A DNA stretch of 64,000 bases from Azolla caroliniana (Eukaryota; Plantae; Polypodiophyta), in NCBI GenBank assembly GCA_043228905.1, contig JBHGNT010000021.1, positions 3,534,001-3,598,000 on the forward strand. Direction: 5' to 3'. Positions 1,472 through 56,526 of this stretch are shown piece after piece. The notes under the pieces are model-generated. The model did no database searches and was not told where the DNA came from. It saw nothing but the letters and a program-made list of their open reading frames with translations. The position numbers and the translations under genes were made by a program. Numbering within the stretch: position 1 is the first letter of the stretch; each line of letters opens with the position of its first letter.

Positions 1472-2302
1472 CCGTTTCGTAGGAAGAACCGGTATGCCTT
1501 CTTTCGGATCCGGCTTGCTTCGTCTTTCGTCCATGTCGCATCCGGCCCCAACATGCTTAGGAACTTACCAATCTGGAGCCACTGCCTGTCGTAATCGTTC
1601 CCATCGAACTCGTTCAAGATCAAAGTGCTCCACTTTTTTGCCGACATTCGAGCCGACTCGAAGAAGTCCACGCCGACCTCTTCGTCTTCCGACACCATGC
1701 CATCCTAGTTCTCGAACCGTGCTCTTGAGAGCATATCAGCCATGGTGTTGTCCTTTCTGGGGATGTGTCATATCTCCGGCTTCAGGGCCTTGATGTACGT
1801 GATCCACCGAAGCATCGCCAGGGCCGTAGATGCACATCCGGAAATCAAACTGAGAACCGGTAGGAAATTTGTCTCGATTATCACTTCTGTCCGGATCATG
1901 TAGGCTTTATTGTCCTTTACCGCCGAAAGGATACCCTAGAGTTCGTGGTTAACCTGGGTGTATCCTCGTTGCCGCTCGCTTAGCACCTTCGCACCGAACC
2001 GGATGGGGAAACGTGTGTTGTCCTCGTCTTCATGATTAACCATCCACCCAATTCCGGTCGGACTCATATCCACCGTTATGTAAACCAAAGTGTCTGCCCT
2101 ATATACTACTTTCCGGAGAGTCGGCGCCATCGTTAGCCTTAAGCCTCCAGACCGCCTCTATGTGCCCGTTGTTCTATTCGAATTATCGACCCTTCTTTAG
2201 CAAGCTGTAGAGCGGCTCGGCGAGGTGCGCGTAATAAGGAATCCAAATGTGGTAGAAGGCACATGCTCCCAAGAATCGTCAGACTTCTGTGACCGACCTG
2301 TG
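1472..2302 (-). pseudogene. Degenerate gypsy pol fragment (RT end, RNase H, linker); host of A1 and of copia C1
   Basis: Fragments RFPIRFGAKVLSERQRGY and RIRKKAYRFFLR match the 3596..6988 pol but contain stops and frameshifts. Confidence 0.88.
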
Positions 2303-3595
2303 TGTGCGGAATGGGGCTCGACAATGGAAGAAAGCAAGAAATGAAAATAAGAATAATGCACTTACACAGAATGAGATAACACCAAATGTTAACGTGGAAA
2401 ACCCTAAATGGGGAAAAATCACGGGAGCCCACAGATTCCAACTATCACTATGAGAAGAGGATAGAAAGCGAGACTCGGAGGAAACAACCTGAAGCTCTAT
2501 GTCTTTGCCAACCGACAGTTACAACAAACAAGCTTTCTATGTTTTTTACCCTCTCTCTATCTCTCTCTCTTTACCACAATAGTAATAACAACTCATCCAC
2601 TATATATTTCATAAATGGTTGCCCTAAGTCATATTTATACAAATATGGCCATGACAGGCCCTCTAGAAACATATTTACAAATATGTCCCTAGATCCGGTT
2701 CACACCGGATTCATCCGGATCCGTCCGGTCTAGTTCCTTCCTTTGGCTCATCCGATCCGGCTCCTTCTATTCTCATCTGGATCCCATCCGGAGGGACCGA
2801 ATTCCCAACAAGCTCACCCTTCACACGTTGTCGGGGTTGCTACGCCCTTGCGTGCAGAAAGGAGGAGGGACCATGGGGGTCTTGGACCGAAGAGCAAGAG
2901 AGAGAGGAGTAAGAGAGAGAGGCCCGATTACACAGAACCGAAGATTGCACAGGGACACGGCCCAACAAACAGAGATCACAATTAAACGCCGACGCAGATG
3001 GACGCAACAACGAGAGATATGTACTTATGAATGCAAGAAAATAACAGGCTAAAGTATTACAACCCACGGTGGGGCACGAAATAGATACTAACGAAACGAA
3101 CAGGGCGGCGAACAGATGCCGACCCCTGTATGTCGCGACGCACAGAAAAGGGAAAACAGGTCGGAGGTGCTGCAGGACGCACTCGGGGCGTTCCACGGAA
3201 CAACGCAAGCCTCCTCGAAACCTGCACAGGTACGCGATGGAGCAGAAGACAGAGAAAGCAGGAGTGAGAGAGAAGCTCCGAAATCAGTTCGGCAGCACTT
3301 CGTCCTCTCCGCGCGAGATACCCCACTTCTATTCTCCCTCTTCCTTTTATAGCCCGTCAAGAGGCCGTTTGGCATTAACTGCATACCAACCGAATCTACC
3401 CACCTAGGATCCTCGTATGTACCTACTTCGTCCTTAGGTACTTCTTGGCGCTCGTGTGTGTGTAGAGCCGTTTACCACGCCTTGTTCCTCCGATTCCTCT
3501 TGTGGGCGGTTTTCTTCACGACATCCGCCCCCACCTAACCGCGCATCCACCGGCATGCGCCAAATTAAGTTGGCACGGAGAAAACCGGCCCGCCT

Positions 3596-6500
3596 TTACT
3601 CTTCGCCTGCCGGCCCTTCCTCGGCCTCGGATCGGTCGTCGCTGCTGTCCAGGAGAATCGGGTCGGGTTCGTCGTCGTGCCGCTTCTTGAAAGCTTTGAT
3701 CCTCTTCCCGGCCACGGGTATCGCTATTCTCGTACCGTCGAGTTCCGCCAGATGATACGTCCCGTTGTCGTTGGCGCTCTGTACCGTGTACGGCCCGAAC
3801 CACCTCCGTGCGAACTTCCGCGTTGCTCGGTGCTGGTTGTCGAGGCTGCTGTCGTAGACGAGCACCCAGTCACCTTGTTCGATCTTCTTCGGTCGGAGTC
3901 GGTGCGTTCGGTCGAACCTGGCTTTGTTCTTTATCCTCGCCACTCGGATCCTTTCTGCAGCCGTCTCCACGTCCTCCGGTCTCCGTTCGAGTTGTCGTAT
4001 ACGCGCTGCCAACAACTCCTCCCGGCTCATCTCGCCCCTCCAGTCGACCGTTGCCCATGAGGAGATTGTTCGTTCCATCGGCATGATCGGCTTCTGGCCG
4101 AACATGAGCTCTGTCGGCATGTACCCGGTTACCGAACTGTGCGTAGTCCGGTCGGCCCACAAAGCATAAGGTAGAAGTCGCGGCCAGTTACCGACTTGGC
4201 CTCCGCATGCCCGAACCAGCGCTTTAACGATCGGCCCGTGTCCGCGCTCCACCTTTCCATTCGCCTCCGGGTTGTACGCAGTGGTGAGCGAGAGTTTGAC
4301 TCCCAGCCGATCGAACAGCTCCGCGGCTTCCTCGGCGTCCAACTCCCCTCGGTCAGCCACGATCTTCCCGACGCACCCGTACCGGCATATCACGTCCTCG
4401 ATCAGGAACCGACACACGGCCGCGGTCGTCTTGTTCTGAAGGGCTCGGCCTTCCACCTGGTTCGTCAGGTCTTCCCGTGCTAGGACCAGATACCGCATCT
4501 GTCCTACCCCCATCGGCATCGTCACCAGATCTACCATCCATTTGAAGTGGATAGTTGGAGGGTACGTAGGGCGAAGCCCGTCCCGGTGTCGGACTATCGA
4601 GTGCATCTGACAACTCTCGCAAGTTGACACGAACCGATGCACGTCCCGGTACAATCCCGGCCACCAGTACTTCCCCTTCAGCTTCTCAAATGTCGCCCAC
4701 GTTCCACGGTGTCCAGCCCAAGGGCTGTCGTGGTAGGCCGCCAGTAGCTCCTCCTGTTCTTCCTTCATCGCCACCACCCGGAGCGGGACGCCGTTCCTCT
4801 TCTTCGGGTGCTTCCACAAATGCCCATCTCGGAGAAAGAATCGATATGCTTTCTTCCGGATCCGGTTGGCCTCGTCCTTCGTCCATGACGCATCGGGCGT
4901 CATTGTCTTCAAAAACCCGCCGATCTGCAGCCACTCCCCGTCGTACTTGCTCGCGTCGAACTCGTTAAGCGCCGGAGTGCTCATCCCGTCGGTCGTTATG
5001 TATGCCGCCTCGAAGAAATCCACGCCGACTTCTTCGTCTTCCGAAACCATGCCGCCCTCGTCGTCGAACCTCGCCCTCGAAAGCATGTCGGCCATGGCGT
5101 TGTCTTTCCCGGAAATGTGTCGTATTTCCGGGTCCAGGGACTTAATGTACGCTATCCACCTGAGCATCGCCAGGTCCGGAGTCGCGCATCCGGAAACCAT
5201 ACCGAGAATCGGCAGGCAATCCGTCTCGATGATCACTTCTGTCCCTATCAGGTAGTCTTTGTCGGCCTTAACCGCCGAAACAATACCCCAGAGTTCGCGT
5301 TTAACCTGGGCGTATCCTCGCTGCCGTTCACTGAGGACTTTCGCGCCGAATCGGATCGGAAACCGATTGCCGTCCTCGTCTTCCTGGTTCACGACCCATC
5401 CGATCCCGGTCGGACTGGTATCCACCGTTATGAATACCGGGGTACCCTTCCCGTATACCGCCTTCCGGAGTGCCGGTGCCGCTGCAAGGGCCTCTTTCAG
5501 CTTCCGGACCGATTCCGCGTGCTCGTCTAGCCATTCGAACCTTCGCCCCTTTTTCAGCAACCCGTACAGTGGCTCCGCGACGTGTGCGTAATGCGGGATC
5601 CATATGTGGTAGAACGCGCATGCCCCCAGGAATCTCCGTACTTCCGTGACCGAGCTGCAGTCGGGCTTCATCGCGGAGATGGCTTCTACCTTTGCCGGAG
5701 ACGGTTTCCGGCCATATGGTCCGCACAGGTGTCCGACCACCATGATTTCTGACTGCCCGAAGGCCGACTTCTCCCCGGAGAAGGTGAGTCTCGCATCCTC
5801 TAGTCTTTGCAGCACCTTCTCGCAGTCGTCGATGTGCGTCGCCACGAATCGCCGGCATCCGTCCGGCCCGATCGTCTCGTCCTTTTCTTCCACCGGGCAT
5901 CCCTTGATCGGGATGTCGTCCAGAAACGGCATGGTGATGTCCGGGATACAGTCCCTCAGAACCTTGTTCATCGCATTCACCATGTGGGCCACCGAGTTGG
6001 TCCCTCCTTGCGGCAGTGTACACATCCGAACTAGGCCGAGGGGAGTTCGCATCGTCGTAATGTCTCTGCTCTCCACGGCTAGCTGGAACTGGTCGTACCC
6101 TGAGTATAGATCCCCGACCGAGTAAATTGACCTTCCGGCGAAGGCCTCCACGAACTCGTCTATGGTCGGTCCGATCCCTGCGTTCCGAATGGTCACTCGA
6201 TTGACCGGCTGCAGGTCCTGGATGAAGCGCAACGAACCGTTTTTCTTCGGTACGGTAAACCATCGATTCGAATATGGGGCGCTCGACGGCTCGAGAATTC
6301 CCATATCAACTTTCTGCCTCAGCAGCTCCATCAACTTCGGGATGTGAGCTCTCGGAACCGGGATTGGCTTGAGATTCCACGGTACATGCGGTACCGTGAA
6401 TATCACCATTGGCTCCACGATCGTCGGGTCAACGCACCCGATTTCCTCCGGCGAGAATGCGAAGGCTTTCCCGTGCCTTCCGAGCATTCTCCGAAACCGG

Positions 6501-6988
6501 TCTTCCTCCGCCGGCAGTAGGAACCCGCCCCCACCGATTTTGAGCTCTCGGAGCGTCTCGTCGGTGAAGGTGTGTCCTATGCAGGCCGGATCTCGTAGAC
6601 TAGGGTCCGATGCAACCCCTTTGATTCTCGACGCGCTGTCCTCCGGTAAGGGTGCCGCGACTGGCCTTACCTTCCGGTCCACAGTCTTGTACTTGGTGCT
6701 TACGTGGGCCGTCCGAACTGACTCGAGCCCTCGACCGAAGTCCGCGATGACTCCGTACATCTCCTCGGAACACACCGGTATCGTCCGGTCTTCGTTAAGG
6801 CCTTCTTCGACTACCTTTCCCAGCATTCCCAAGGTGTCGTCGAATGAGACCGCCTCCACGGCTCCGTTGATTTCCTCGTCGGGGCCGAGAACTCCGCACG
6901 CTCGAAGTCTCCCCTCCGCCTTTGTCTTCTGACCACGCCGGTCGTGCCTCTGACCACGCCGGTCGGAGCTGAACCGGATTCCAGCCAC
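3596..6988 (-). CDS. Pol (RT-RNase H-integrase) of A2; N-terminus created by the deletion junction
   Basis: RT LPQG...FLDD, RNase H TDTS...ETDC, integrase HHCC and D,D(35)E region (WMVDL, VADRGE, GKVER), GPY motif; no chromodomain seen. Confidence 0.95.
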   Translation of the reverse strand: MAGIRFSSDRRGQRHDRRGQKTKAEGRLRACGVLGPDEEINGAVEAVSFDDTLGMLGKVVEEGLNEDRTIPVCSEEMYGVIADFGRGLESVRTAHVSTKYKTVDRKVRPVAAPLPEDSASRIKGVASDPSLRDPACIGHTFTDETLRELKIGGGGFLLPAEEDRFRRMLGRHGKAFAFSPEEIGCVDPTIVEPMVIFTVPHVPWNLKPIPVPRAHIPKLMELLRQKVDMGILEPSSAPYSNRWFTVPKKNGSLRFIQDLQPVNRVTIRNAGIGPTIDEFVEAFAGRSIYSVGDLYSGYDQFQLAVESRDITTMRTPLGLVRMCTLPQGGTNSVAHMVNAMNKVLRDCIPDITMPFLDDIPIKGCPVEEKDETIGPDGCRRFVATHIDDCEKVLQRLEDARLTFSGEKSAFGQSEIMVVGHLCGPYGRKPSPAKVEAISAMKPDCSSVTEVRRFLGACAFYHIWIPHYAHVAEPLYGLLKKGRRFEWLDEHAESVRKLKEALAAAPALRKAVYGKGTPVFITVDTSPTGIGWVVNQEDEDGNRFPIRFGAKVLSERQRGYAQVKRELWGIVSAVKADKDYLIGTEVIIETDCLPILGMVSGCATPDLAMLRWIAYIKSLDPEIRHISGKDNAMADMLSRARFDDEGGMVSEDEEVGVDFFEAAYITTDGMSTPALNEFDASKYDGEWLQIGGFLKTMTPDASWTKDEANRIRKKAYRFFLRDGHLWKHPKKRNGVPLRVVAMKEEQEELLAAYHDSPWAGHRGTWATFEKLKGKYWWPGLYRDVHRFVSTCESCQMHSIVRHRDGLRPTYPPTIHFKWMVDLVTMPMGVGQMRYLVLAREDLTNQVEGRALQNKTTAAVCRFLIEDVICRYGCVGKIVADRGELDAEEAAELFDRLGVKLSLTTAYNPEANGKVERGHGPIVKALVRACGGQVGNWPRLLPYALWADRTTHSSVTGYMPTELMFGQKPIMPMERTISSWATVDWRGEMSREELLAARIRQLERRPEDVETAAERIRVARIKNKARFDRTHRLRPKKIEQGDWVLVYDSSLDNQHRATRKFARRWFGPYTVQSANDNGTYHLAELDGTRIAIPVAGKRIKAFKKRHDDEPDPILLDSSDDRSEAEEGPAGEE

Positions 6989-7707
6989 TCCCGAGTCTCT
7001 TCCCTTCGCACCGGCTGCGCCGGCTCGAGTTTCCTCGCCGCGACTGAGCCCGACCCGGTTGCTCTGTCATCCTCCCATTCTCGCCGTTTGTCGAAACGGC
7101 CGCAGGCTCTCTTGACCGCCGCCCAGTCGGCTGTCAGCCCGTCTTCGGTTTCTAGCAGGGCGCCCACGTGACTCCGATCCCTCTCGTCAACCGATTTGAC
7201 GAACAGCAGGACCCGGCTTGTATCCAGGACCATCCTGTCCAGCGCCGAAAGGCGCGCGAAGTTCTCCTCGAACTCCCGGAGGAGTGCCGACGCATTCCTT
7301 CCTTTCCCGGGAGACTCCACCCACTCCATGAAGCTTCGCTTCGAAAGCCGGAGCGCGTCGTCCAGTCCGTATTTTTCCAGGAGCCGACCTTCGAACTCCT
7401 CCCAGGTACGGCTCTCCGCCCGCACCTCGAGCACCTCCGCGTGGATGCTCGGCATCGCCACTCGGGGAAAACCGGCAAGACGCCTATCTTCCGGAATGTC
7501 CCGCATTAACATTTCCGCACCGTAGGACGCCAGGTACTTCGTGGCATCTTTTCCGGTGAATCGACCGATCGTTCCGACGACCGCCTCAATAGCTCTATCG
7601 AGGGCGCCGGTGCCCTCGCGCGCGCTTACTATCCGATCCACGGCCGAAGCCATGGCCTCTGCAAGATCCGCCCCCTTCATCTTCTGCTCTTCTGTCGCCT
7701 CTTTCAC
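6811..7707 (-). CDS. Truncated Gag (capsid part) of A2
   Basis: Homologous to the gag at 57223-57960. Starts in or just after the PBS and lacks the CCHC knuckle because of the deletion. Confidence 0.85.
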   Translation of the reverse strand: MKEATEEQKMKGADLAEAMASAVDRIVSAREGTGALDRAIEAVVGTIGRFTGKDATKYLASYGAEMLMRDIPEDRRLAGFPRVAMPSIHAEVLEVRAESRTWEEFEGRLLEKYGLDDALRLSKRSFMEWVESPGKGRNASALLREFEENFARLSALDRMVLDTSRVLLFVKSVDERDRSHVGALLETEDGLTADWAAVKRACGRFDKRREWEDDRATGSGSVAARKLEPAQPVRREETREWLESGSAPTGVVRGTTGVVRRQRRRGDFERAEFSAPTRKSTEPWRRSHSTTPWECWER

Positions 7708-10419
7708 GTCGGGTTCACCAAGATGTCGGGGTTGCTACGCCCTTGCGTGCAGAAAGGAGGAGGGACCACGGGGGTCTTGGACCGAAGAGCAAGAGAGAGA
7801 GGAGTAAGAGAGAGAGGCCCGATTACACAGAACCGAAGATTGCACAGGGACACGGCCCAACAAACAGAGATCACAATTAAACGCCGACGCAGATGGACGC
7901 AACAACGAGAGATATGTACTTATGAATGCAAGAAAATAACAGGCTAAAGTATTACAACCCACGGTGGGGCACGAAATAGATACTAACGAAACGAACAGGG
8001 CGGCGAACAGATGCCGACCCCTGTATGTCGCGACGCACAGAAAAGGGAAAACAGGTCGGAGGTGCTGCAGGACGCACTCGAGGCGTTCCACGGAACAGCG
8101 CAAGCCTCCTCGAAACCTGCACAGGTACGCGATGGAGCAGAAGACAGAGAAAGCAGGAGTGAGAGAGAAGCTCCGAAATCAGTTCGGCAGCACTTCGTCC
8201 TCTCCGCGCGAGATACCCCACTTCTATTCTCCCTCTTCCTTTTATAGCCCGTCAAGAGGCCGTTTGGCATTAACTGCATACCAACCGAATCTACCCACCT
8301 AGGATCCTCGTATGTACCTACTTCGTCCTTAGGTACTTCTTGGCGCTCGTGTGTGTGTAGAGCCGTTTACCACGCCTTGTTCCTCCGATTCCTCTTGTGG
8401 GCGGTTTTCTTCACGACAACGTCTAGCTTGTCGGTTGACAACACCTTGGTCAGCATGTGGATCGTTGTTAGGAGGAACTCTTTATCTTCTACCTTCTCTC
8501 GTAGCCAGTGATATCGTCTCTGGATGTGCTTGGTCCGGGAGTGGTAGGTCGCGTTCTTCGAGAGGTGGATGGCACTTTGACTGTTGCAGTGGAGCCGGAA
8601 TTCCTCTTGTCGGATCCCTAGCTCTCCGATGAAGTCCTTCATCCAAATTACCTCTTTACCGACTTCTAATGCCGCCATGTACTCCGCTTCCATTGTCAAT
8701 AGTGCAACAAACTTCTGCAACCTCGACTGCCACGATAAGGCTCCCCCTGCATATGTCATAACATATCCGGAAGTTGACCAGTTGGTATTTGCATCAACCG
8801 ACATATCCGAATCCGTGAATCCTTCAAGTTGGGGTTTTCTAGAGCCAAATCAAAGGCACGTACTCGAGGTGCCTTTCAAGTACCGGAGTATCCACTTGAC
8901 GGCGGTCCAATGTTCCCTTCCCGGATTGCTTATGAACCGGCTGACTACATCGACATCGTATCTGATATTCGGCCAAGTACACAACATTGCATACATCAAG
9001 ATTCTGACAGCAGAAGCGTATGGTATCTTCATCATTTTCAACGTCTCTGCCTTTGTTTTCGGACTTTGCTTTCCGAACAACTTGCAATTTTTCGGGAGTG
9101 TCAACCCGACTGGCTTGGCATTCGATATGTTGAACCGTTGCAGCACTTTTGTCACATACTTCTCCTCTGACAGCCATAATAGCTTCTTCATCCGGTCCCC
9201 AATATCTATCTCGCCAAACCGAAATCTTTCATTGAGAAGGTTCGGTTCAAGGCTTTCTTCAGATTCCCGATTTTGGTACTGTTCGGTCCGACGATCAATA
9301 TGTCATCCACATATAGTAGGAGTATTAGGAAGTCTCCTCCATCGAAATTTTTTAGAAATACACAGTGGTTGTCCTTTCTCTTGTGGTATCCTCGATCGGT
9401 CATGAAGGAGTCGAACTTCCGGTACCATTGCTAGGGAGCTTGCTTCAGTCCGTATAAGCTCTTCTTCAACCGGCATACCATGTGCTCCTTCCCTTTCTTC
9501 ATGAATCCTTCCGGTTGTTGTATGTAGATCTTTTTTTCGAGGTCGCCATGTAGGAACGTCGTCTTGACGTCTAGTTGCTCTACCTCAGGGTCCATGCTTG
9601 CCGTTATGCTCAACACAGTTCGGATGAATGTCATCTTCATTACGGGGGCAAAGATCTCATCGAAATCCAATCCTTTCTTATGTTGGAAGCCCTTCACCAC
9701 AATGCGGGCCTTCTACCTTGGTGGATTTCAGGAGTCTCCCGGTTTCAGCTTGTACACCCACTTGTTCCAGAGCACTCTCTTTCCCTTCGGCAGCTTCGTT
9801 AGTTCATATGTGTGGTTCTCATGCAGGGAATCCATCTCATCCTACATGGCACTTAACCAGTTGCATCTGTGGGTGTCTTTCTCTACTTCTTCGAAGTTGT
9901 CATGCTCCCCCTCGTCAGTCAACAACACATGCTTTGCATCCGGAAATCTCTGGGGGGCTCTTCTCTCCCTGAGAGGATATCTTCTTCCTTGGTTCTCGTC
10001 CACTTGTTCCGGTGTCCTGATCTTCTTCTTCTTCGATCGATTTAGTCTCTTATCCAACTCCGGCCAGTTCTTCGAGTGCTATCCAGCTTCCGGCCGGATG
10101 GGTCTTGTCAGTCAATCCGAAGTCTGCTATCTTCTTCTTCGACCCCTAGTCGACAATAGTCTTGTCTTCCATGAAGACTATGTCTCGACTCTGAAACACC
10201 TTCTTGTCGACCAAGTCCCACACTCGGTATCCAAACTCGTCATCGCCGTATCCAAGGAATATGGATGGTCGGGACTTCAGATCGAATTTCGCTCTCTTGT
10301 CCTTTGCAACATGCACGTAAGTGAGACAACCGAACACCTTCATATGCCTGTAAGACACGTCTTTACCGGTCCATACTTTCTATGGTGAGTCTCCTTCCAA
10401 GGGTGCTAAGGTTGATCTG

Positions 10420-12252: not shown

Positions 12253-13098
12253 TGTCGTGACGAATTTCGGCCAGAGGCGGAAACCGGGAAATATTGGCTA
12301 CATCGACGGGGTGCAGCATGTGCGATCGCCCTTGTACATTTAGTGTGAATAACGAGGGCGCCTTTATGGCGCCGAAGAGTAGACAAGTCGGGACAGAGAA
12401 TCCCATGTAGGTCGGGATGTATCCCACATTGTAACGCATCTCCCTCCTTGTTCTATAAAAGGAGGGGAGCGCCTCTTGTGAAGGGGTTGCCCATTTTTGC
12501 ATTCGTAGGGCATACCGTTAGAGGAAGAAACGTTCTCTCTTCCTCTTTCTTTCCTCTTGTTTACGATTTCGTTTCTTTTCTCTGCTTCTCCCTCTTCGTC
12601 GTTCTGAGTATCAAGCCTTGGCATCTCGTGTTCCTGTTTCCTGCCCGTTCTCTGTGCAAGACCCCACTGGGCACGACAAGCCCGAGAGCCCCCCCTCCCC
12701 CCCCCCCCCCCCCCCCCTTGACCAGCGGCTTGGCAGTAGACGACTGTTGTAACCTGAGCTACTCAGGTCGGGCTCGATACCAGTATTGTATCTTAGTCTT
12801 GTAATATATGCATGGAGGATCCTGCGCACCGGTGTTTGTGTGGGTGTTTTGGTGTTCTCTTACCTCCGCTTCTATACATAAGGGCGTGAGTTGGGTCGGC
12901 GTGGTGTGTGGGTGTGGGTGTGAGTCGGTGTCAAGCTCTCTCTCTCTCTCTCTCTCTCTCCTGTCCGGTTGCTTCCGGTGTGCTTCTAGGATGCCCCGGA
13001 AATAGTGAAGCACGACTTCCTAGGCTCCGTCACTCCCTAGTCCAAGACCCCCGTGGTCCCACCTGGAATTCTACACATACCCGCGTAACAACGCGACA
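12253..13098 (+). mobile_element. Solo LTR of the tRNA-Trp gypsy group inserted in C1 gag
   Basis: TGTCGTGA...CGCGACA ends, TSD ACGG (12249-12252, 13099-13102), TATAAAAGG, family U5 motif GTCCAAGACCCCCGTGGTCCC. Confidence 0.92.
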
Positions 13099-25246: not shown

Positions 25247-25249
25247 TGT

Positions 25250-25282
<33 letters not shown>
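25247..25282. repeat. (TG)n microsatellite
   Basis: Near-perfect TG run. Confidence 0.9.
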
Positions 25283-25288
<6 letters not shown>

Positions 25289-39681: not shown

Positions 39682-39699
39682 CCTTCATTCCTTACATAT

Positions 39700-45214: not shown

Positions 45215-46239
45215 AACTCCCTAAGGTTGCATATGAAGTATGTACATATAGGTAATGACCCATTGTGCTAATCATGAGCAATTTCTTGTATCTAACATGA
45301 TATAAGTTAATAAATTTCTTCTAAATATTTAACAATCAGTTTGGGAATCCAAATAGTATAAAAAATTCTCATATATGACTCTTACTCATATTGAGCCAAG
45401 GAAATCATGTGCCAAAAACTGCACAAGATAGAAATGGAGGTAATCGCTTGTCATTTTCTTTTTAGTTTATATTATCTATGTATGTAGAGTTCAATTTCAT
45501 TCCGTTTAAAAGTTCTAGGTTAAATTTGTAATACAAGACTAAAAAATGCGATAATGTTTGGTGAATTTTAAGCTAATTTTTGTAAACCTTGCTGAATGTT
45601 TACTTTTGGAATATATGTTTACATTTAGTCAATTTTGTAGTATTTGAATTTTGGATATTGTTAATTGGGAGATAGTGCATTTGGTTCATGTGTCTTACTC
45701 TTGTCTTTGTTTTAATTTTGTTTTTTTGCAATTGAAACACCTTAGGTCATTTTTAGATAGTCTTGTTTTTAGGTTTATTTACGTATGGAGTGCTTTGTCA
45801 ATACTTTTATTTTATCGCAAATTTTGTTTGGAGTATTTTAATATAATGATTATTATCAATCTTATCTTTCGTTCTTTTTTTTACCATAAAAACATTGCCT
45901 CACATTAGTTAGCAACCAAAATACAATAGAGTTCAAACATTAAGGTTCACAAGGCCTAACCTTAGAGGGATTGGAATATCCAACAACTCCCAATCTCATC
46001 TTTTTTAACGTGTTCTACCAATAATTTGTCTCTTATATGAAGGAAGGGTTTGGAGAAGACAAATTAGTGTTTACGCCTTGCAATAGATATTTGAGCAAAC
46101 AAAACATAAGGAACTAAATGAACTTGAGAAGAAAAATAAAAATGGAAGCATATATATCAACATTGCAAGAAAATTACTTGGCATCTTATTAATTGATATT
46201 CACAACTGGATGGAAACTAGCAACAATGGACTTTGTGTG

Positions 46240-46717
46240 TGCTGAAAATACTCTGGTACACCTTGTTGTCCATATACACCATATGGGGCAAGCAACGTCC
46301 TCCAGCTGAATCGATTAAGCTAATCTGGTACACATTAATAACTACATTGAGAGCTCAATATGAGCAGATTGATTATACTGAGGATGTTGTAGAATTAATG
46401 AGGCTAAATTTTAGAAAGCGGTGGTGTACTACACCGATGGCCACAACAAATGGAATGGATATACAATGGCAGTATGTAGTATCTACATGGTTGTTCCCCC
46501 CTCCCATTAGTTGAATGAGGGGCGTGAAAGAGATGTCATGTGGGATAATGAATGTTGATGATGTGTATGAAAGGATGGCTAGAGACACATGTGAAAGTGT
46601 AAGATAAATAAGTGAGATTTCTTATGTAGGATAGGATAATGTAGGCAATGCCTACCCGAGAAAGGGATCGAGTTTGTGTATATTTTAACTAATGGAGTAT
46701 ATTCTTTTTTGGAAAAA
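46240..46717 (+). mobile_element. 5'-truncated LINE remnant
   Basis: 18-bp TSD AACAATGGACT(T/C)TGTGTG (46222-46239, 46718-46735), IWYTLITTLRAQY...WLFPP, A tail. Confidence 0.8.
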
Positions 46718-47182
46718 AACAATGGACTCTGTGTGACTTAACAGAAAAATTACTCTTTTCACTTTTAGTGTTTGAGAACAATACCAAGAAATGCATCATT
46801 ATTGATGTTCGAAGGGGAAATTTGTATGTAACTTTAGGGGTTCAATTTTCTTGTTTTTCGAAACTTATTTACTAGGATCGCTTTCATTACACTAGCACTC
46901 ATCAAAGTCAACAGACCAAATACATTGTACTATTGTAGTATCGTTAGGTTAAGAAGTTGAAGGACAAAAAGAAAAAGATCTTGTAATTCTGCAAGTACGT
47001 AAAAGTGCAAGGCAAGGCAAAGAGTGGAATGGAGTGCAAGGCAAGGCAAAAGCAAAAAATGATATATAAGGACTCTCAAACTTCTACAATAGATAGTGAA
47101 CTCTCAAACTTTCATAATACATACAGGTCTGACTATATACTTCTACGCCTTCGTCAAGTTAGTATTTTTATTCACTGAAATC

Positions 47183-47980
47183 ATGGGTGGAGGACATTAC
47201 CACAAACATACTATTATGATGCTTATGAACAAGAAGAAAAACATGAAAAAGCATCACCCCCTTGGGCATCATGAGCCTTTGAAACATATTTATGTAAATG
47301 GAGTACCTTTTCATCATCATCCTCGTTGTCATCCCCACTTATCACATCCCACAAGTTGTAATATTATCGATATGAATGATATAATAATTATGAAGAGCCC
47401 CAAAAATCTTAGTGAATTCATGGACTATGATACTTTAAACAGATCATGCAAGAAGGTTCCTCATCATCGTCGTCGTCGTCATCAGCACCCCAACCATCAT
47501 CATAATGATCATGTTCATGAGCATTCTCATATGCAGAAGTGTGAAAGTGGGCACTTAAGTCCATCATTGCCTATACCTCAAGATGCTTCAATCAGAACAT
47601 ATGATGATATAACAACAAAGAAATTTCCACAATGTGGTATTATAAACATTGGAGCAACTCGCCATTATCATGGACATTGCGATCAAGAGCTTTCTCATTT
47701 AAGTATGCCCAAGTGTAAATGGTGTACACGAGATGGCCCTCCACCACCTTCATGGAAGAATAACATTGATGTTGAACATTATAAAAATGCGTCAACACCA
47801 CCACCTAACATTAATGTTGTTGGATCAACCCCTCCTTATACCACCCATCCTCTCAATGATGTTCCACATCCTTCTCATGCCCCACCTACATACAATGACA
47901 ATGTGGCTCTATTTGGTCGTGTTGTGAACCTAATCGATGATATCCCTCGTCCTTCTCCCATGCCCCCCACCTACAACTAA
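47183..47980 (+). CDS. Hypothetical intronless His/Pro-rich protein (265 aa from the ATG)
   Basis: Long ORF in AT-rich DNA, TATATAAG near 47063; no recognisable domain. Confidence 0.55.
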   Translation: MGGGHYHKHTIMMLMNKKKNMKKHHPLGHHEPLKHIYVNGVPFHHHPRCHPHLSHPTSCNIIDMNDIIIMKSPKNLSEFMDYDTLNRSCKKVPHHRRRRHQHPNHHHNDHVHEHSHMQKCESGHLSPSLPIPQDASIRTYDDITTKKFPQCGIINIGATRHYHGHCDQELSHLSMPKCKWCTRDGPPPPSWKNNIDVEHYKNASTPPPNINVVGSTPPYTTHPLNDVPHPSHAPPTYNDNVALFGRVVNLIDDIPRPSPMPPTYN

Positions 47981-49002
47981 TTATGTTGACAATTTAATAA
48001 TATTCCTAAATTAAAAAGCTAATGAGATCTACATAATCTCTCAAAAAAGACAAACTATTTTTGTAAGAAGCCTCTACTTTGAAATGTTACTATAAAACCA
48101 ATATGTTTTGGAAATTTGGATGCCAAGAGGTTTGTGAAATTGTGACTCAAGGCACTCATTATGGTATCACTTTCACAAGGCTATAAAGTTGGAAAGCTAT
48201 CATAATCCTATTTTCCCAAAATGTTATCGCATTGTCTAGAATCTCTAAGAAGGCAATGTAATATACTGTTTTGAGGTGCCTTTACGTGCAACTTCAAAAT
48301 CATGTGTCAATTGCTTATCACCGATGACCCATGTAATTTACGAGTATAATGCTAAGAACTTAGTTACCTATTAAAAAATAGTCATGCAACAACTTATGGG
48401 TATTACTTTATGTTAATATTGCTCTAACTAGCATAATCAATTGCAAACATTTATTTAAGATCCTTTCCTATATTGTCATATTTCTTAACATGTAAATATG
48501 GGCTCTCAATATGCAATGCAAACCATTGTATTCAAATATTAAATGATGCTCGAGACATTGAAGACATCGTGGTAGTTGTTAACCTCCTACCCTTATGGTT
48601 GACATGTTTCTAAAAATGTGAACTATGGATTTGTTATTGCGATGCAGTACATCCATCTATATATTGCTATGCAACATTTTGCTCCAAAATCGTGATGCCA
48701 AATGATGCCTATAGATGATAATAATGACAATGAAGAGGGTGGAACAATGATGATGATGAAAGACCATGAAAAGTAGTGTTGATGAGGATGAAGCTTGGGC
48801 GAAGAGGAGTTGAAAATGATGATGTCAAAGACAAGGATGTTGATGATGGTAACTCCGGAAGCAAGGACGGTGATGATGGTAACTCTAGAAGCAAAGGCAA
48901 TGACTAAGACGGGTGATCGTTCCCATCTTCTTAAGTTCCTTGTCTCGTCAACAGAGTTTCTAGTTGGATGTATTGTGAATACAAATATTTAGGTGTTGTT
49001 AC

Positions 49003-49416
49003 TAACAATCGTTAACGGTTCCATTTGAAACAAATCGAACCGCGAAACCACGGCTTAACGGTTTAAACGGTTTGGTTCAAGTTTGGGTTTTTTTAACGGT
49101 TCAGTTTCAACGGTTAGAAACCACGGTTTAAAGGTTTTTTATTTTTTTATTTTTATTTTTTACAAAATGGTTTTTAAACAATCTTTTCATTTTCATGCCT
49201 TATTTTCACATTATAGGAAAATCTTTAAAATTTTGAAATTTTAAATAATGAAATATTTTAAATTTTGACCTAAGCTGAAAACTGAAACTTAACAACGAAA
49301 CTAGTTTATTGGCTTAATGGTTTGAATTTTTTTTAATGGTTCGGTTCGGTTCAGGTGTCTAAAACTTTAAACGGTTCGGTTTTGACCCTCTCGAACTGAA
49401 CCATTGCAGATTGTTA
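49003..49416. mobile_element. hAT-type MITE
   Basis: TIR TAACAATC...GATTGTTA (extends imperfectly ~25 bp), 8-bp TSD GTTGTTAC, subterminal AACCG/CGGTT repeats. Confidence 0.88.
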
Positions 49417-52400
49417 GTTGTTACACCTTCCAAATGGTAAAAGTCCTTGTTGGGACAATATAACAAGTGAAGTCTGTTACCCGTTCCCTTGGGTGAACAC
49501 CTTTGATAGATCTGCGGCTATCGGTATTCAAGGGCGTGGTACGTGAAGGCTCGTAACAGAGGCGTCGAGGGAGAGACAGTGCTCAGAGAGAAAACACTAA
49601 CGAGATCTTGACAGGCGTGGGCGGCGCTCAAATCATACGTATGAATCAAAGCACAGACACATGGAGCAAATTGGGCACAATTCAGATATATTACTACGAC
49701 AGAAGAGATTACAGAACACGGCCTACGGTCGGTGACCTTACAAGATTAGCTAGTTACGAGGGACTCAACTAGTGCTTCCGCCTATATTTTCTTCTCCCCC
49801 CCACTCTGAGGTACTGGTCTGTGTTTAAATAACTTTTCCCCTAATACACAACCGAGCCGTCGGTGGCCCGTGATACTCGGACTCGGCGTTTGCTAATTTC
49901 CTAATTTTACATTTCTATCCTCTGGACAACACCTGGCACGCCCGTGGGACAGGACCTTGTCCGTCGGACCCACGACTTACAAAATACTAACAATATTACA
50001 AAAATTGCCTTTTAGGCGTGATCCTCGTTTCATTCCTCTTTTAAGATGTCGAGGATGTTTTCGGGGTCCGGGGTGGTGGCATGGTGGTCTGGTTGGACTA
50101 TCGGTGCGGGGGGTTGAGTTTGGTCCGGGGGTATCATATCTTCTCGGGCGTCCGCCTCCGGTGCCGCCGATTCTTTTGGTGGGGGTGTGGGTTCGAGGGC
50201 GTTGACCTCTACTTCGACTGGATCTGGTACCGTGTGGGCGTCCATGGGATGTCTGTTGGCCGGGGCAAGTTCCTCTTGTGCCATGTTCGTGATCTCCTTG
50301 CTAGAAGGTTCTTCCTTCTGCTCTGTGGCCGTTGGAGGGCTGGTTGGGATGGCTGCGAGTCGTTCTCGTTCGAAGGCTTCTGCTTCCAGGCGAAACAACA
50401 TTTGACCGTCATTGAAGTCCTCCATTATTTGCTCGATTGCCGCGGTGTGAGATTTTCCCAAGGACTGGTAATCCTCGGTTAAATCTGCACGCAGGTTTTG
50501 TATGCTGGCTTCGTCCATTTTGTAGAAGCCGCGGCCCTCCTTCCGTCGGTTCTCGGCGTCGGCGCGTAAAATATGCAACTCGGTAGCTTGGGCTGCCCAT
50601 TCGTCTCTTGCGCGACTTAATGTTTCCTCGACCTTTTTGGTCAGGTGCTGGCGCTGTTTCTCGATCAGTATTTTGATGCGTGTCTCATCCATGCCGGGTT
50701 GTGCTCGGATGGCCGCTAAGTCCTGTTTTAAGCCGTCGACCTTGGCCTGAAGCTTCTGTGCTCGTAGTTCATAGATGGCTTGAGTGTTCTTTGCATCCGC
50801 GGTTACAAGCTGGATAGCCTGCTCGTAACGCTTGGTGAGTTCTTCGGTGGCTTGCTCTCGTTCTTTTTGACACGCGGCCCGGACTTGTACCCGTTCGACG
50901 ATTCTCTCCTCTTGTAGGGCGAAGTAGGAATCTGATAATTTGTCTTTTTGCTCCGAAAGTAGCTTGCATTTGATGAAAAACTCGTCAGCCATTTCTTTAA
51001 GGGTCGTACGCTGACTCTGCAGCTCGGCATTCTCCGCGATCATTCTCTCCTCCCGTCGATGGTTCCAATCTTTCGCATTGTCGAGCACGGCCTGTAGGTC
51101 TAGGACCTCCTTCTCTTTCTTTGCCACTGTGGTTGCGTATTCCTCCAGCTTGCTTTTGAGTTCGGCTTCTTTGCCCGCGGCTTGCGCTTGTACCCGGCCC
51201 AGTGCTTCGTTCTGCTCATGTATCCTTTGGTCGGCCTGGGCTCTCATCTCGGCCATCTGCTTGGAAGCTTCTTCTTTTAGGCGAGCCATCGCCTCTTGAT
51301 GCCGTTGTTCATGTCTCTCGGTTCGCCGTTGTTCTTCTTTAAGCTCCGCACGGTAATCCCGGAGCGGGGGTTCTGTCTGGGTTGCCACCTCCTTGGGTGC
51401 ACGAGGGGGTGGTATCTCGGTCTTCTCCATGGGCGTGGGCGCCTCGGTTGTTGTGCAGGCATCGACCATTTGTAACGAGTCCGTTTGTGTACTGGCCTGC
51501 ATCGTCAGGATTGAGTCGGTGATGGTGCTTTCATCCATCATTGTTATGCGTGGAGGCGCTGGGAGGGCCTCGGTGGTCATGACCGGAAGGCTCAAGAGTT
51601 GTTGTTCCGGCCGGTTTTGCTCCCAGGCTGCCAGCTTCTGGTTCGTAGCGTGCCATAATTCTGTAGCCATCTTAGCCTGTTTTTGGGCTATTTTTATCTT
51701 TCGGGCCATGTCTTTGGCTGCCCGCGTAGTGCGATTCAGGTCCCGATATGCCTCGATAAGGGCCGTGTTCAACTCGGGGACCTCCATGAGGAGAGCGACA
51801 TGTTTTGCCTGCTTCTTTCTCCCGATTTTTTGTAAAGCCCTATCCTCCTAGGGCTCAATTTCACCTATTAGCGCGCGTTGAATCATTTTTGTTTCGGCGT
51901 GCTCCTCCGCCATTTGAGCAGCTGCCGCGACTTGGGCTCTGGCGAGGAAGTCGACCAGCTCGAATGTCGTACCGAGGTGTAGGAGCGTACTAAATTCGTA
52001 AGCCTCCGCGGGGAGGTCCTTATACCCGAGGACTTCATCCTCCGAGATCTGCGTTGTCTGCCCATGCTCGATCTTTCCCTGGTTCAGCGATGCCTCCTTA
52101 GGGATGATGGCCAGGTTGCTCTGTCTGACAACTAAGGCTTGCTCCTGTTGTGGCTCTTTCTGTTCTTCCGAGGACTCGCGGTTGAGTCATCTTCTCTTGC
52201 TTGGCTATGTTTGGGGTTCCGGGGTCGGTAGTGTCGTTTCCTCCACCTACTTCCTTTTCTGGGGTCATGGTGGTGCAGCCTGCTGTGTGTTGGGGCGTGG
52301 GCTAGGCCCTCAGGAAGTTATCGAGGGGCGTGACGTTGGTTGTCGAATGGTGACGTCATCGGCCGTGTTGTCTTCCGCGGCTACCTCCTCCTCCCATTCT

Positions 52401-53107
52401 TGGTAGGTCTCGGAAACTGCCCTTTTTTGTTGGGGTTGGGTGGGTGGTGGTGGAGATGCGGGGTTTTGGTCGGCGGCAGGAGGTGGAGGCGATGTGGGCT
52501 CCTCCCATGCTTCGTGGCTGATGGCAATGAATTTCTCTTTCTGCCTTCGTGGTGGTGGTGGGGACGTGAGTGTGCGAGGGGAAGGAAGAGAAGAGGGTGG
52601 GTATAGAACCATCAAAAAGTGGGTAAGAACAGACAACATCTTCTTACCGGATTGAAATGAAGCTAAGGCGGCGCGGAGTCCTTCGCCTGTGATGATTCCC
52701 CAATCGATTCTATTTCCTTCATACGCGTTGTCGCGAAGATGCGCGTGCGAGCGTGCTTCGCTTGAGCGGGACCACCGGGGTCTTGGACCAAGGAGGATGT
52801 CCGTCAAGGTATTGAGAAGAGGACGATGTGAATGTAAGATTGGAGGAAGACCTATTACACTTGAGAAGATTGAAGATTGTACACTTTCAGAAGTAGATAA
52901 ATAATTACAAGATAGATGCGAAGAAGAAGAAATAGAAGCTTATATTATTGATGGTGATGATGATGGTCATATCATATTGACACAGTTTTGCTTTGTGACA
53001 TGCAAGAAACCATGGGCTTAAAACCGTGGTTTTGTGTACACGGTTTTGTTCGTTTGTTTCCTACGGAATACTGAATATGAGAAAGAAATATAGAACATCT
53101 AAAGCAC

Positions 53108-53180
53108 TTAGTAGTAGCTTTAGTGGTAAGGTAATTGCCTCTTACCTTAGGGGTGCAAGGTTCAAATCCTACTTGCAACC
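53108..53180 (+). promoter_or_regulatory. tRNA-like Pol III A/B-box cassette in N3 LTR (second copy 56030-56102)
   Basis: TAGCTTTAGTGGTAAG (A box) and GGTGCAAGGTTCAAATCC (B box), antisense to the element. Confidence 0.6.
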
Positions 53181-53261
53181 CTCTACATGCACTCAATGCC
53201 ATTGTGACCTAGGTTTATTTATTTTCATTTTTACAAGTATTCGTGAAATGTGTGTGGATCC

Positions 53262-55610
53262 TCAATTTTTGAGTTTTTCTCGCACTAGACATGCCACATC
53301 ACGACATCCACCCCCACCAAACTGCACATCCTCCGGTATGTGCCAAGAAGAAAAGAGTGATGTGGAAGGGTCAAAGGTGGTTGGTGTTTGATTTCCTCCT
53401 TTCTTGTGCCTCGTCCGCACCGTCTTTTTGTCGTCTACTTCGAACTGCCGTTGCCATCCGATCCACCATATCATTCGCTTACCTTTTTTATTGCCATGTC
53501 TAGTTGTCATGGCTCCCTGTGCTCCTCCCAAGCATAACGCTTCATGCCTCGTGCATGTGCCACCTTCATCTCGGCCATCTCCTTGGTCACTTAACTTTCC
53601 TTTATCATCCTTTCTCGTCTCATGCTTGCCTTTCCTTATGCTCAACAGCCTCGATTGGATGTCGCAGCTCGTTTGCTTTGACCTCTGTCTAGGCCGGCTC
53701 AACTTCTGTCGGGATCGGTCTCGACCAATCAACTTCTGGCTTGGTCGGCCTTCGTTCGGATTCGCATTCGGCCGAATCGGACTTAGATGATTGACTTTCG
53801 TCCGGGTTAGTTTCCGTCCGGTTTTCAGTTGGGTCGGGCCTAGTTGATCAACTCTCGTCCGGGTCGGCTTCCATTCGGGTCGGAATACCAACTGAGTCAT
53901 CTTCCATCCGGATTGTATTCCGGTTCTTCCTTTCTTGCCGCTCTTTGGCTCTTCATCGAACTCTATTGTAGCTTTGTTTTTGGCCTCCTTGTTGGCAACC
54001 GTTCCTCTGTATGCGCCGGCTTCGACCCTCATCTCCTCGCTACCACCTTCCATCTCTCCGGTCTGATGTTGGCTCTCGGGCACAACTGCCGAAGTCTTCG
54101 GAACCTGTGTGGAGGGATCCCTTCGTCTGTGGTCATCGTCCTCATTGCCACTTTGGTCCTTCGATTTCTTGCCGTCACCTTCCGCCTCTCCGGTCTCACG
54201 TTGACACTCGGGCACAACTGCCGAAGTCTCAGGAAGAAATGTGGGGAGAACCTCGACACCATCGGTCACCGTCTTCTCATCCATAGCCATCTTTCGCTCA
54301 ATGTTGTTATTCGCATTGTCTTCAATATTTTCTTCCCCACCACTTTTCGTCTCTTGGGTCTCATGTTGGCTCTCGGACGCAACTGCCCAAGTCTCTAGAT
54401 CAAGTGTTGGGAAAGTCTCGACACGGTCATCCGTCGTGAACTCTTCCTTAGCCATCTGCGACTTGATGTCGTTTCTCGTGGCTACCGCCTCAATCACGTC
54501 GACCTCGCACTCTTTACATCCCTTGATCACGCAAGCTTCCCTCATGCTTGCACCTTCATTACTCGATATTTCGGACACATCACGTGTTCTGAAATGCTCA
54601 TCCACTCTTAAAGCAGCATTTCCCGCTCTCGAGTCTTCGGCCCTTCTCTCGACCATCGTTCCTCCATAAGTCGAGAAGGTGGCTTGTTTCACACCTTCTC
54701 CCATGGTACTGTCATACCAAACCTGGGCCTTCGTATTGGCTGCACCATTAGTCTGCATTTGTCGGGAGGTCTCCTCTTCGTCGATCACCATTTTCCTCGG
54801 TTTTGTTTTCAGCTTCTCTTGAACCTCGACTTGTGCCTTTAAGTTCATTATTGCCTCTCTCATCAAGGCTTCTATGTTGAGTTCTTTCGAAGCTTCCCTC
54901 TTCGAGCTTTCTTCCTTCAGTGGGTTTTTATTGCCACATCCCATTCTCCTTTGAACATCCCTTGTGGGTCGTGTTGTTGTCGATGAGAGTCTCATCTCCT
55001 TCTTATCGTGTTGTCGGCATACCCTTTCCACTTTGGCCCAATCCTCAGTGAGGCCATTTTCACCATTGTCATCCTCGAGTTGGATTCCAATGGTCTTCCT
55101 TTCATTCCGATCGATTGACTTTACAAACATCAGAACTTTATTCACCCCCACCAATCTTCGATCCCGGTCCGAGAGTTGAGCGAAGCGATACTCAAACTCA
55201 ACGAATGCATGCATAGCACTCTGGTGGGTCTTTCTCGATGACACCCATTCGTGAAACTCATATAGACCTCGTTCCTTTTGCTCTTCGTAACCATATGACT
55301 CTCGTAAAGCTTCTTTGAAGGACACCCACGAATCGTGAGTTTTTTGAATCTCTTTAATCTCTTCGAAGATTGGTTCGGCCACCACTCGACAAAAGTACTC
55401 CAGCCTCATTGCTTCCTCCACTCCTCTTGAATCCATTTCGGCATTGTAGGCCTTTAGAAATTTTTGGACTTTGCCTCCATCGAAAAACCCGACTCGCTTG
55501 ATCATGCTTTCGACGGCTTGTTGGGCCGCACGTCGTGTTTTCCCTTCTCTTGAAAACTCCATCATCATCTTTGACATTGCCTTCATTAGATATTCCTCGT
55601 CCAGCTTCAT
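53262..55610 (-). CDS. Gag capsid-like domain with acidic repeats, basic tract and Trp motif, 782 aa
   Basis: VGFFDGGKV, SWVSFKEAL, VLMFVKSID, GLTEDWAKVERVC; intact and reads through the PPT into the LTR. Confidence 0.88.
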   Translation of the reverse strand: MKLDEEYLMKAMSKMMMEFSREGKTRRAAQQAVESMIKRVGFFDGGKVQKFLKAYNAEMDSRGVEEAMRLEYFCRVVAEPIFEEIKEIQKTHDSWVSFKEALRESYGYEEQKERGLYEFHEWVSSRKTHQSAMHAFVEFEYRFAQLSDRDRRLVGVNKVLMFVKSIDRNERKTIGIQLEDDNGENGLTEDWAKVERVCRQHDKKEMRLSSTTTRPTRDVQRRMGCGNKNPLKEESSKREASKELNIEALMREAIMNLKAQVEVQEKLKTKPRKMVIDEEETSRQMQTNGAANTKAQVWYDSTMGEGVKQATFSTYGGTMVERRAEDSRAGNAALRVDEHFRTRDVSEISSNEGASMREACVIKGCKECEVDVIEAVATRNDIKSQMAKEEFTTDDRVETFPTLDLETWAVASESQHETQETKSGGEENIEDNANNNIERKMAMDEKTVTDGVEVLPTFLPETSAVVPECQRETGEAEGDGKKSKDQSGNEDDDHRRRDPSTQVPKTSAVVPESQHQTGEMEGGSEEMRVEAGAYRGTVANKEAKNKATIEFDEEPKSGKKGRTGIQSGWKMTQLVFRPEWKPTRTRVDQLGPTQLKTGRKLTRTKVNHLSPIRPNANPNEGRPSQKLIGRDRSRQKLSRPRQRSKQTSCDIQSRLLSIRKGKHETRKDDKGKLSDQGDGRDEGGTCTRHEALCLGGAQGAMTTRHGNKKGKRMIWWIGWQRQFEVDDKKTVRTRHKKGGNQTPTTFDPSTSLFSSWHIPEDVQFGGGGCRDVACLVREKLKN

Positions 55611-56526
55611 CCTCCCCTACCGCTCTTCACGTCGGGTTCACCAAAAAAAATGTCACGAAGATGCGCGTGCGAGCGTGCTTCGCTTGAGCGGGACCACCGG
55701 GGTCTTGGACCAAGGAGGATGTCCGTCAAGGTATTGAGAAGAGGACGATGTGAATGTAAGATTGGAGGAAGACCTATTACACTTGAGAAGATTGAAGATT
55801 GTACACTTTCAGAAGTAGATAAATAATTACAAGATAGATGCGAAGAAGAAGAAATAGAAGCTTATATTATTGATGGTGATGATGATGGTCATATCATATT
55901 GACACAGTTTTGCTTTGTGACATGCAAGAAACCATGGGCTTAAAACCGTGGTTTTGTGTACACGGTTTTGTTCGTTTGTTTCCTACGGAATACTGAATAT
56001 GAGAAAGAAATATAGAACATCTAAAGCACTTAGTAGTAGCTTTAGTGGTAAGGTAATTGCCTCTTACCTTAGGGGTGCAAGGTTCAAATCCTACTTGCAA
56101 CCCTCTACATACACTCAATGCCATTGTGACCTAGGTTTATTTATTTTCATTTTTACAAGTATTCGTGAAATGTGTGTGGATCCTCAATTTTTGAGTTTTT
56201 CTCGCACTAGACATGCCACATCACGACAGCGCTGATGATGATGGTTGCCTTGTTCTGCGGCATGCTCGTTGGGTTCGTATGCACGAACGCATACTCCATT
56301 AATATACGAGCAATCTCCCCGAAAGCTATGTTGGGACCGCCATACGTGCGATGTGCTTTCCCTGAGGCTGAGTACTCCCCGAAGTACGCTTTCATCTTCG
56401 ATGCCAAGGGTAGGTCGACCTCATGGTCCCCTCCCCGTTGCAGGTCCAAAACAGCCCGAAGCACGTTGTTGGTGATGGCTTCGGGACTTATACGTTTAGC
56501 CACACCTTGGGCATCTGGGTGCGCGG

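What the first reader, a model, noticed from the sequence alone, without database searches (positions are those of the whole stretch)
1472..56526. All seven Trp-primed insertions hit a CpG-centred 4-bp target (RCGN), always inside other TEs
Seen: duplicated targets ACGT (2825/8419), ACGG (12249/13099), GCGT (15150/18670), ACGT (19681/24606) and GCGT/GCGC (52725/56229); single flanks CCGT (1472) and GCGG (56523). Read on each element's own strand, all are purine-C-G-N. The copia and chromovirus insertions with both flanks visible have 5-bp TSDs without CG (ATCTG, GGTAT, TGGAT). None of the seven lies in the 24-kb AT-rich genic island, and the A2 integrase has no chromodomain. Inference: an integrase that selects CpG, possibly methylated CpG, would steer insertions into existing TEs and away from genes.
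Basis: partly seen in the sequence, partly recalled or inferred. Interest (0 to 1): 0.75.

Follow-up and report, generated by a model that had tools for sequence, protein, structure and literature searches.

The report
Phygy-type retrotransposons that insert at CpG
These jumping genes do insert almost only at a C-G step, best at ACGT, but that preference is already published for the moss Phygy lineage to which they likely belong, and nothing here shows that DNA methylation guides them.

Summary
All 12 flanks are as stated, and 7 of 7 CG centres is not chance (p about 1e-9). The trait is already in print: Neumann 2019 gives Phygy, a moss non-chromovirus Ty3/gypsy lineage, a tRNA-Trp primer and a 4-bp NCGN duplication. 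The window's elements share these features and lack a chromodomain and an added RNase H; a tree against Phygy references could not be run.

In 77 further junctions of the same LTR families, 67 have central CG and 7 of the other 10 have CA/TG. The motif is a palindrome, not-T/C/G/not-A with ACGT best, not a strand-read RCGN (53 of 67). That shape is the usual geometry of 4-bp-stagger integrases. A distant plant genome holds a full 8.5-kb relative with a GCGT duplication.

'Always in TEs, away from genes' does not hold generally. The island is CpG-poor (0 of 7 has p 0.07-0.22 by CpG-site count) and shows no Pfam host gene. Two of 77 junctions lie in host-gene sequence. Methylation is untested. 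An acidic residue at the target-contact position of the integrase (112 of 112 homologues) is a new lead.

The parts
1..1471 (-). Element A1: 5' LTR 679-1471, PBS ending at 674, start of gag; the rest lies beyond the window
   Evidence: flank CCGT at 1472-1475 (ACGG on its strand), inside an older pol fragment of the same lineage (68% aa to A2 pol)
2829..8418 (-). Element A2: LTRs 7724-8418 and 2829-3523 (3 differences in 695), PBS, gag start, open pol 3596-7066 (RT-RH-IN); lacks about 1.5 kb of gag end and protease present in E
   Evidence: TSD ACGT 2825/8419, inside a copia element
3599..4945 (-). A2 integrase: H2C2 zinc finger, DDE core, SH3-like C-terminal domain, short acidic tail; no chromodomain or methyl-CpG-binding domain detected; Glu three residues after the second catalytic Asp
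12253..13098 (+). Solo LTR of the same lineage
   Evidence: 3' end 75-83% like the LTR ends of C and E; TSD ACGG 12249/13099, inside copia gag
15154..18669 (+). Element B: non-autonomous, gag-like ORF only, LTRs 15154-15881 and 17943-18669 (1 indel)
   Evidence: TSD GCGT 15150/18670, just downstream of a copia PBS
19685..24605 (+). Element C: non-autonomous, gag-like ORF with long low-complexity tail, LTRs 19685-20362 and 23928-24605
   Evidence: TSD ACGT 19681/24606, inside an LTR-like sequence starting at about 18961 (read by eye)
52729..56228 (-). Element D: non-autonomous, gag-like ORF only, LTRs 55651-56228 and 52729-53306 (2 differences)
   Evidence: flanks GCGT/GCGC differ at one base (later mutation or recombination between two copies); host is a GC-rich LTR-like element read by eye, no Pfam hit
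56527..59912 (+). Element E: 5' LTR 56527-57177, variant PBS, gag (DUF4100), protease, start of pol; cut by a copia insertion at 59913
   Evidence: flank GCGG 56523-56526
24874..49420 (.). AT-rich, CpG-poor stretch (16 CG/kb outside the chromovirus) holding LINE remains and a chromovirus at 28439-35488; no host gene identified

Best explanation
The seven insertions belong to one lineage of non-chromovirus Ty3/gypsy LTR retrotransposons, likely Phygy, whose integrase leaves a 4-bp duplication centred on CG (best ACGT) and likely picks that step by reading DNA sequence and bendability rather than methylation. Shown: the shared PBS, LTR ends, 4-bp TSD, palindromic not-T/C/G/not-A motif, domain set, and that gag-only copies B, C and D use the same target rule. 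Inferred: a two-fold symmetric intasome kinks the target at a central pyrimidine-purine step, T is excluded at the joined base as in most retroviruses, and lineage-specific contacts narrow the step to CG; a conserved acidic residue at the PFV Ala188-equivalent position is the candidate. Inferred: B, C and D are mobilised in trans. Inferred: nesting in TEs follows from TEs holding most CpGs, plus selection against insertions in genes.
For: Phygy: 186 elements, 4 bp 100% (NCGN), tRNA-Trp 81%, no extra domain, 7.7-10.0 kb (text). Window: 7 of 7 CG. Further junctions: 67 of 77 CG against 3.7% background; position 1 A45 C13 G8 T1, position 4 T45 C10 G10 A2; 64 of 67 VCGB. In four sequencing runs the listed loose-end rows leave the window's sequence at 8421-8423, after the CG, or at the PPT junction 8418 (32 rows not shown). 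Distant genome B9: 8,547-bp element, pol 65% identical, same PBS, GCGT/GCGT. Retroviruses with 4-bp TSDs disfavour T at the first and A at the last TSD base and favour a central YR step, largely independent of chromatin (PMC4422553). The closest solved structure is PFV integrase. CG-centred or CG-rich targets also occur in Ginger1 (CCGG/CCGT/ACGG) and Drosophila ZAM, whose purified integrase binds its target.
Against: No tree against Phygy reference sequences, so membership rests on features. The window's elements are shorter than the Phygy range (3.5-5.6 kb; A2 plus its deleted part about 7.1 kb). Bendability alone does not explain CG over TA, CA or TG. No methylation data were available. CpG methylation is reported to create strong target preferences for an avian retroviral integrase in vitro (review passage). 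The role of the acidic residue is inferred from an alignment only. The 77 junctions come from metagenome assemblies that look like one sample series and cover only the LTR families matched by my pattern.
Confidence: 0.78

Rival explanations
1. The integrase or a partner prefers methylated CpG, so the element finds heterochromatin and other TEs without a chromodomain.
For: 7 of 7 in TEs in the window and at least 39 of 77 elsewhere. 7 of 10 non-CG junctions are CA/TG, the products of methyl-C deamination (p 1.2e-4). In vitro precedent for an avian retrovirus. In P. patens ACG sites keep the most CG methylation in met mutants, Phygy nests in Tcn1, and Phygy is enriched at liverwort centromeres.
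Against: CA/TG decay needs only methylation after insertion. CpG density accounts for island avoidance. No chromodomain or methyl-CpG reader was found in the integrase. Insertions occur in a methyltransferase exon and a DUF247 pseudogene-like stretch and in AT-rich DNA. The A preference mirrors the general no-T rule.
Confidence: 0.14
2. Two layers: the sequence rule picks CG, while a separate chromatin tether (gag or a host protein) brings the complex to heterochromatin.
For: Centromere enrichment of Phygy in a liverwort; nesting in P. patens; by length alone 0 of 7 in the island has p 0.002-0.011.
Against: The excess disappears when CpG sites are counted (p 0.07-0.22). All LTR classes in this window are nested, and selection gives the same pattern. 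No tether domain was seen.
Confidence: 0.15
3. The elements are TatI (also Trp-primed with 4-bp TSD) or an unnamed sister lineage of Phygy.
For: TatI has 4-bp TSD and 75% Trp PBS (4 elements); no reference tree was run here.
Against: TatI carries an added RNase H in 100% of elements; none was found in A2 pol, the L121 pol or P0017. NCGN is reported for Phygy alone.
Confidence: 0.08
4. Chance, or an artefact of the conserved LTR end.
For: Only seven sites in the window.
Against: p 9e-10 in the window and 5e-85 in 77 further junctions; both flanks carry the duplication in five elements (one with a single mismatch); flanks are unrelated outside the 4 bp.
Confidence: 0.01

Closest known systems
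Phygy (non-chromovirus Ty3/gypsy of Physcomitrella patens; Neumann et al. 2019, PMC6317226)
   Same: tRNA-Trp PBS, 4-bp NCGN TSD, no chromodomain, no added RNase H; a full-length relative of 8.5 kb lies in the Phygy size range
   Different: Host not identified and probably another non-seed plant; short gag-only derivatives; motif resolved here to VCGB with ACGT best; no reference tree run
Retroviruses with 4-bp TSD (PFV, MoMLV, PERV, XMRV; Serrao et al. 2015, PMC4422553)
   Same: 4-bp stagger, T disfavoured at first and A at last base, central YR step; PFV integrase is the nearest solved structure
   Different: Their YR preference is weak (about 63% above random) and not CG-specific; they have a small neutral residue where this lineage has Glu/Asp
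Ginger1 DNA transposons (Bao et al. 2010, PMC2836005)
   Same: Gypsy-type integrase, 4-bp TSD centred on CG (CCGG 75%, CCGT/ACGG 24%), TGT ends
   Different: Cut-and-paste elements of animals with inverted repeats; prefer CCGG; relationship to this integrase not tested
ZAM (Drosophila; Faye et al. 2008, PMC2527525)
   Same: LTR element whose integrase binds a CG-rich target directly (abstract)
   Different: Envelope-bearing insect element with a 6-bp CGCGCg consensus; that Drosophila has little CpG methylation is recalled, not from a call
TatI (Neumann et al. 2019)
   Same: Trp PBS and 4-bp TSD
   Different: Has an added RNase H, not found here; no NCGN preference reported

Membership tests
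Phygy | Ty3/gypsy order RT-RH-INT, polyprotein spanning most of the interior | tested here: met
   A2 pol and L121 pol
Phygy | No chromodomain | tested here: met
   None in A2, L121 or P0017 at E 0.05; the window's chromovirus scores as a positive control
Phygy | No added (archaeal-type) RNase H | tested here: met
   One RNase H region only
Phygy | 4-bp TSD | tested here: met
   5 of 5 two-flank elements, one with a single mismatch; L121
Phygy | NCGN target | tested here: met
   7 of 7 in the window; 67 of 77 elsewhere
Phygy | PBS for tRNA-Trp | tested here: inconclusive
   Same 17-base PBS in five window elements and L121. That it matches plant tRNA-Trp is recalled; no tRNA gene lies in the window
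Phygy | Length 7.7-10.0 kb | tested here: inconclusive
   Window copies are deleted, truncated or non-autonomous (3.5-5.6 kb); relative L121 is 8,547 bp
Phygy | Clusters with P. patens Phygy references in RT/RH/INT trees (the formal definition) | not testable with these tools
   Reference FASTA too large to read; named homologues among the listed hits were Riccia and Adiantum only
TatI | Added RNase H domain | tested here: not met
Chromovirus | C-terminal chromodomain | tested here: not met

The most novel reading that the evidence does not exclude
The Phygy-type integrase reads methylated CpG directly at the point of joining, through an unusual acidic target-contact residue or its SH3-like domain. 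It would be a chromodomain-free route into silenced DNA, conserved across liverworts, mosses and ferns, making DNA methylation the landing mark for the elements it silences.
Probability: 0.12. Interest if true: 0.72.

Novelty: new member of a known kind. Interest (0 to 1): 0.22.

Why it matters
The CpG target is a known lineage signature, so its main use is to classify these elements and to find their ends. Three small additions: the motif is resolved to a palindrome (ACGT best, no T at the joined base); it is conserved in a relative with 65% pol identity; and there is a candidate determinant in the integrase. A nearly CG-only integrase in plants whose TEs carry CG methylation is a clean system for asking whether 5mC at the target changes integration. 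My searches found no such test for Phygy. If methylation mattered, it would explain TE nesting without a chromodomain.

Tried and rejected
No whole genome is held for the window, so no genome-wide logo or background was possible; metagenome junctions were used instead. Dropped from the 120 loci before counting: 4 chance matches without LTR continuation (L030, L050, L059, L062, judged by eye), 32 PPT/3'-LTR junctions and 7 duplicates, leaving 77. Strand-specific RCGN rejected. Extra motif outside the TSD: only a weak C preference one base outside (29 of 77, p 0.007 uncorrected over six positions); not relied on. First read-laying showed high copy number but no usable flanks. Fetching more TSDs from genome B9 did not complete, so the cross-genome test rests on one element. 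GingerRoot (6-bp TSD) is not relevant. Whether RLG2 or RLG3 of P. patens is Phygy was not stated in the passages read, so their gene distances were not used. The structure model (pLDDT 80, pTM 0.52) gave only integrase matches. Earlier scan notes held nothing on this lineage. Neumann's Additional file 1 and the FASTA, which list Phygy TSDs and sequences, could not be read; they may already show the ACGT bias.

Full report
Observation. All twelve flanks are at the stated coordinates beside LTR ends of the form TGTC...GACA. Self-comparison resolves seven insertions: A1 (5' part only, minus), A2 (2829-8418, minus), a solo LTR (12253-13098), B (15154-18669), C (19685-24605), D (52729-56228, minus) and E (from 56527, cut by a copia at 59913). 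Five have the same intact PBS and E a one-base variant; that it pairs with plant tRNA-Trp is recalled, not tested. LTR pairs differ at 1-5 positions, so the insertions are young. At the 5.1% CG density of the host TE sequence, 7 of 7 central CG has p 9e-10. The three CG-free 5-bp TSDs are confirmed.

What the elements are. A2 has an open RT-RH-INT frame of 1,156 aa with no chromodomain and a single RNase H and lacks about 1.5 kb of gag and protease present in E. B, C and D encode only a gag-like ORF, 35-37% identical to A2 gag, and are non-autonomous. Named homologues among the listed hits are from the liverworts Riccia sorocarpa and R. fluitans (up to 64% over the long region) and the fern Adiantum nelumboides; 14 plant genomes matched A2 pol DNA, one at 83%. 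The host is therefore likely a non-seed plant; it was not identified.

What is already known. Neumann et al. 2019 (PMC6317226; passages and Additional file 5 read) state that Phygy elements are the one plant lineage with an insertion preference, to NCGN. They list 186 Phygy elements with 4-bp TSD (100%, NCGN), tRNA-Trp PBS (81%), no extra domain and 7,656-9,968 bp. TatI is also Trp-primed with 4-bp TSDs but always has an added RNase H, which is absent here. Jedlicka et al. 2019 (passages) report Phygy nested in Tcn1 in P. patens. A liverwort genome paper (passages) reports Phygy, with Tat and Selgy, enriched at centromeres. The formal test, a tree with Phygy references, could not be run because the reference file is too large to read.

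More insertion sites. I dropped 4 chance matches, 32 PPT junctions and 7 duplicates, leaving 77. Central CG: 67 of 77 against 3.7% in the flanks. Of the other 10, 7 are CA or TG (expected share 0.15, p 1.2e-4), as methyl-C decay would give. One more, L068, is a solo LTR with CCTT on one side and CCGT on the other. Among the 67, position 1 is A45 C13 G8 T1 and position 4 is T45 C10 G10 A2; ACGT is 31. The two ends are symmetric (p 0.81), 64 of 67 are VCGB and 53 of 67 RCGN. These loci look like one sample series of a close relative and only cover the LTR families in my pattern. Contigs of four sequencing runs laid on the A2 end agree qualitatively: listed loose ends fall after the CG (8421-8423) or at the PPT junction, with 32 rows not shown. 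In a distant plant genome (handle B9, pol 65% identical) a complete 8,547-bp element has the same PBS, 1,184-bp LTRs and GCGT on both sides. This is one element only.

Inside TEs, away from genes? The seven hosts are TE sequence: four shown by protein match or a copia PBS, three read by eye as LTR-like elements. The chromovirus, however, sits in a LINE and the solo copia LTRs in copia elements, so nesting is the rule in this window. TE host DNA has 51 CG/kb and the island 16. Zero of seven in the island has p 0.002-0.011 by length but 0.07-0.16 by CG count and 0.12-0.22 by VCGB count, and 0.55-0.62 if the whole window is the target. No host gene family was found in 38 island ORFs. Of the 77 outside flanks, 39 match the window's small TE library, a lower bound, and 21 of 75 are 38% GC or less. 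A Pfam scan of 120 ORFs from 38 mostly unmatched flanks found one insertion in the last exon of a methyltransferase gene (L098), one in DUF247 gene-like sequence with stops (L071, a non-CG junction) and one zinc knuckle. Short-read contigs favour unique flanks, so these shares are biased against TEs.

Mechanism. Retroviruses with 4-bp TSDs disfavour T at the first and A at the last base and favour a central pyrimidine-purine step, because the intasome bends the target there; the choice is largely independent of chromatin (PMC4422553; abstract and sections 6 and 14 read). The VCGB pattern has exactly this shape, with the step narrowed to CG. The A2 integrase is closest to PFV integrase by sequence (E 2.6e-22) and by fold; the model shows zinc finger, core, a long helix and an SH3-like domain, with no added reader domain. 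At the position aligning with PFV Ala188, where retroviruses have small neutral residues, 112 of 112 aligned homologues (of 118 hits) have Glu or Asp. I infer that this or a neighbouring contact fixes CG; that step is untested. Ginger1 transposons (CCGG, CCGT/ACGG; passages) and ZAM (abstract) show that CG-centred or CG-rich targeting by Gypsy-type integrases has precedents. Drosophila TE target motifs are palindromes as a rule (passages).

Methylation. Nothing in the sequence records whether a CpG was methylated before insertion. For: a review passage says CpG methylation created strong target preferences for an avian retroviral integrase in vitro (the 1992 paper itself was not read), and ACG sites hold the most residual CG methylation in moss met mutants (passages). 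Against: no reader domain, insertions in gene sequence, CpG density suffices, and retroviral sites in cells are disfavoured in CpG-methylated regions (passages). Searches of the held library found no test for Phygy. I put direct methyl reading at about 0.12-0.14.

Verdict. A real and strong target preference, already published for this kind of element. New here are the palindromic refinement, one more distant genome, gag-only derivatives and a candidate residue. Interest 0.22.

Noticed in passing
window 3599-4945 (-), integrase residue 201: Glu or Asp three residues after the second catalytic Asp in 112 of 112 aligned homologues; the window's chromovirus has Pro there and retroviruses have small neutral residues.
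   Followed up: partly
window 28439-35488: Intact chromovirus (1,510-aa ORF) with identical LTRs that end TG...TA instead of TG...CA, Met-type PBS, 5-bp TSD TGGAT, inserted in a LINE remnant.
   Followed up: no
window 15154-18669, 19685-24605, 52729-56228: Three different gag-only non-autonomous elements with long charged low-complexity tails and near-identical LTR pairs, so recently mobile.
   Followed up: partly
window 14295-15047: A solo copia LTR (14300-15042) sits inside the Met-type PBS of another copia element; its TSD GGTAT is part of that PBS.
   Followed up: no
L045, junction at the LTR start: One element inserted into the ACGT left beside an earlier LTR of the same lineage: the duplication recreates a target.
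   Followed up: no
L098:46-300 and L071:994-1693: Insertions in a methyltransferase (PF03141) last exon and in DUF247 gene-like sequence.
   Followed up: partly
window 36230-36647 and 42614-43028: Two 92% identical LINE 3' ends in inverted orientation, 6 kb apart.
   Followed up: no
window 47093-47980 (+): His/Pro-rich 295-aa open frame without Pfam match, the only long non-TE ORF in the AT-rich stretch.
   Followed up: no
window 50030-51847 (-): 605-aa coiled-coil-like ORF without Pfam match, antisense to an LTR-like element with a PBS at about 49935.
   Followed up: no
window 15260-15290 and 56075-56100: LTRs of B and D hold short tRNA- or SINE-like B-box motifs, read by eye; ARAGORN finds no tRNA.
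   Followed up: no
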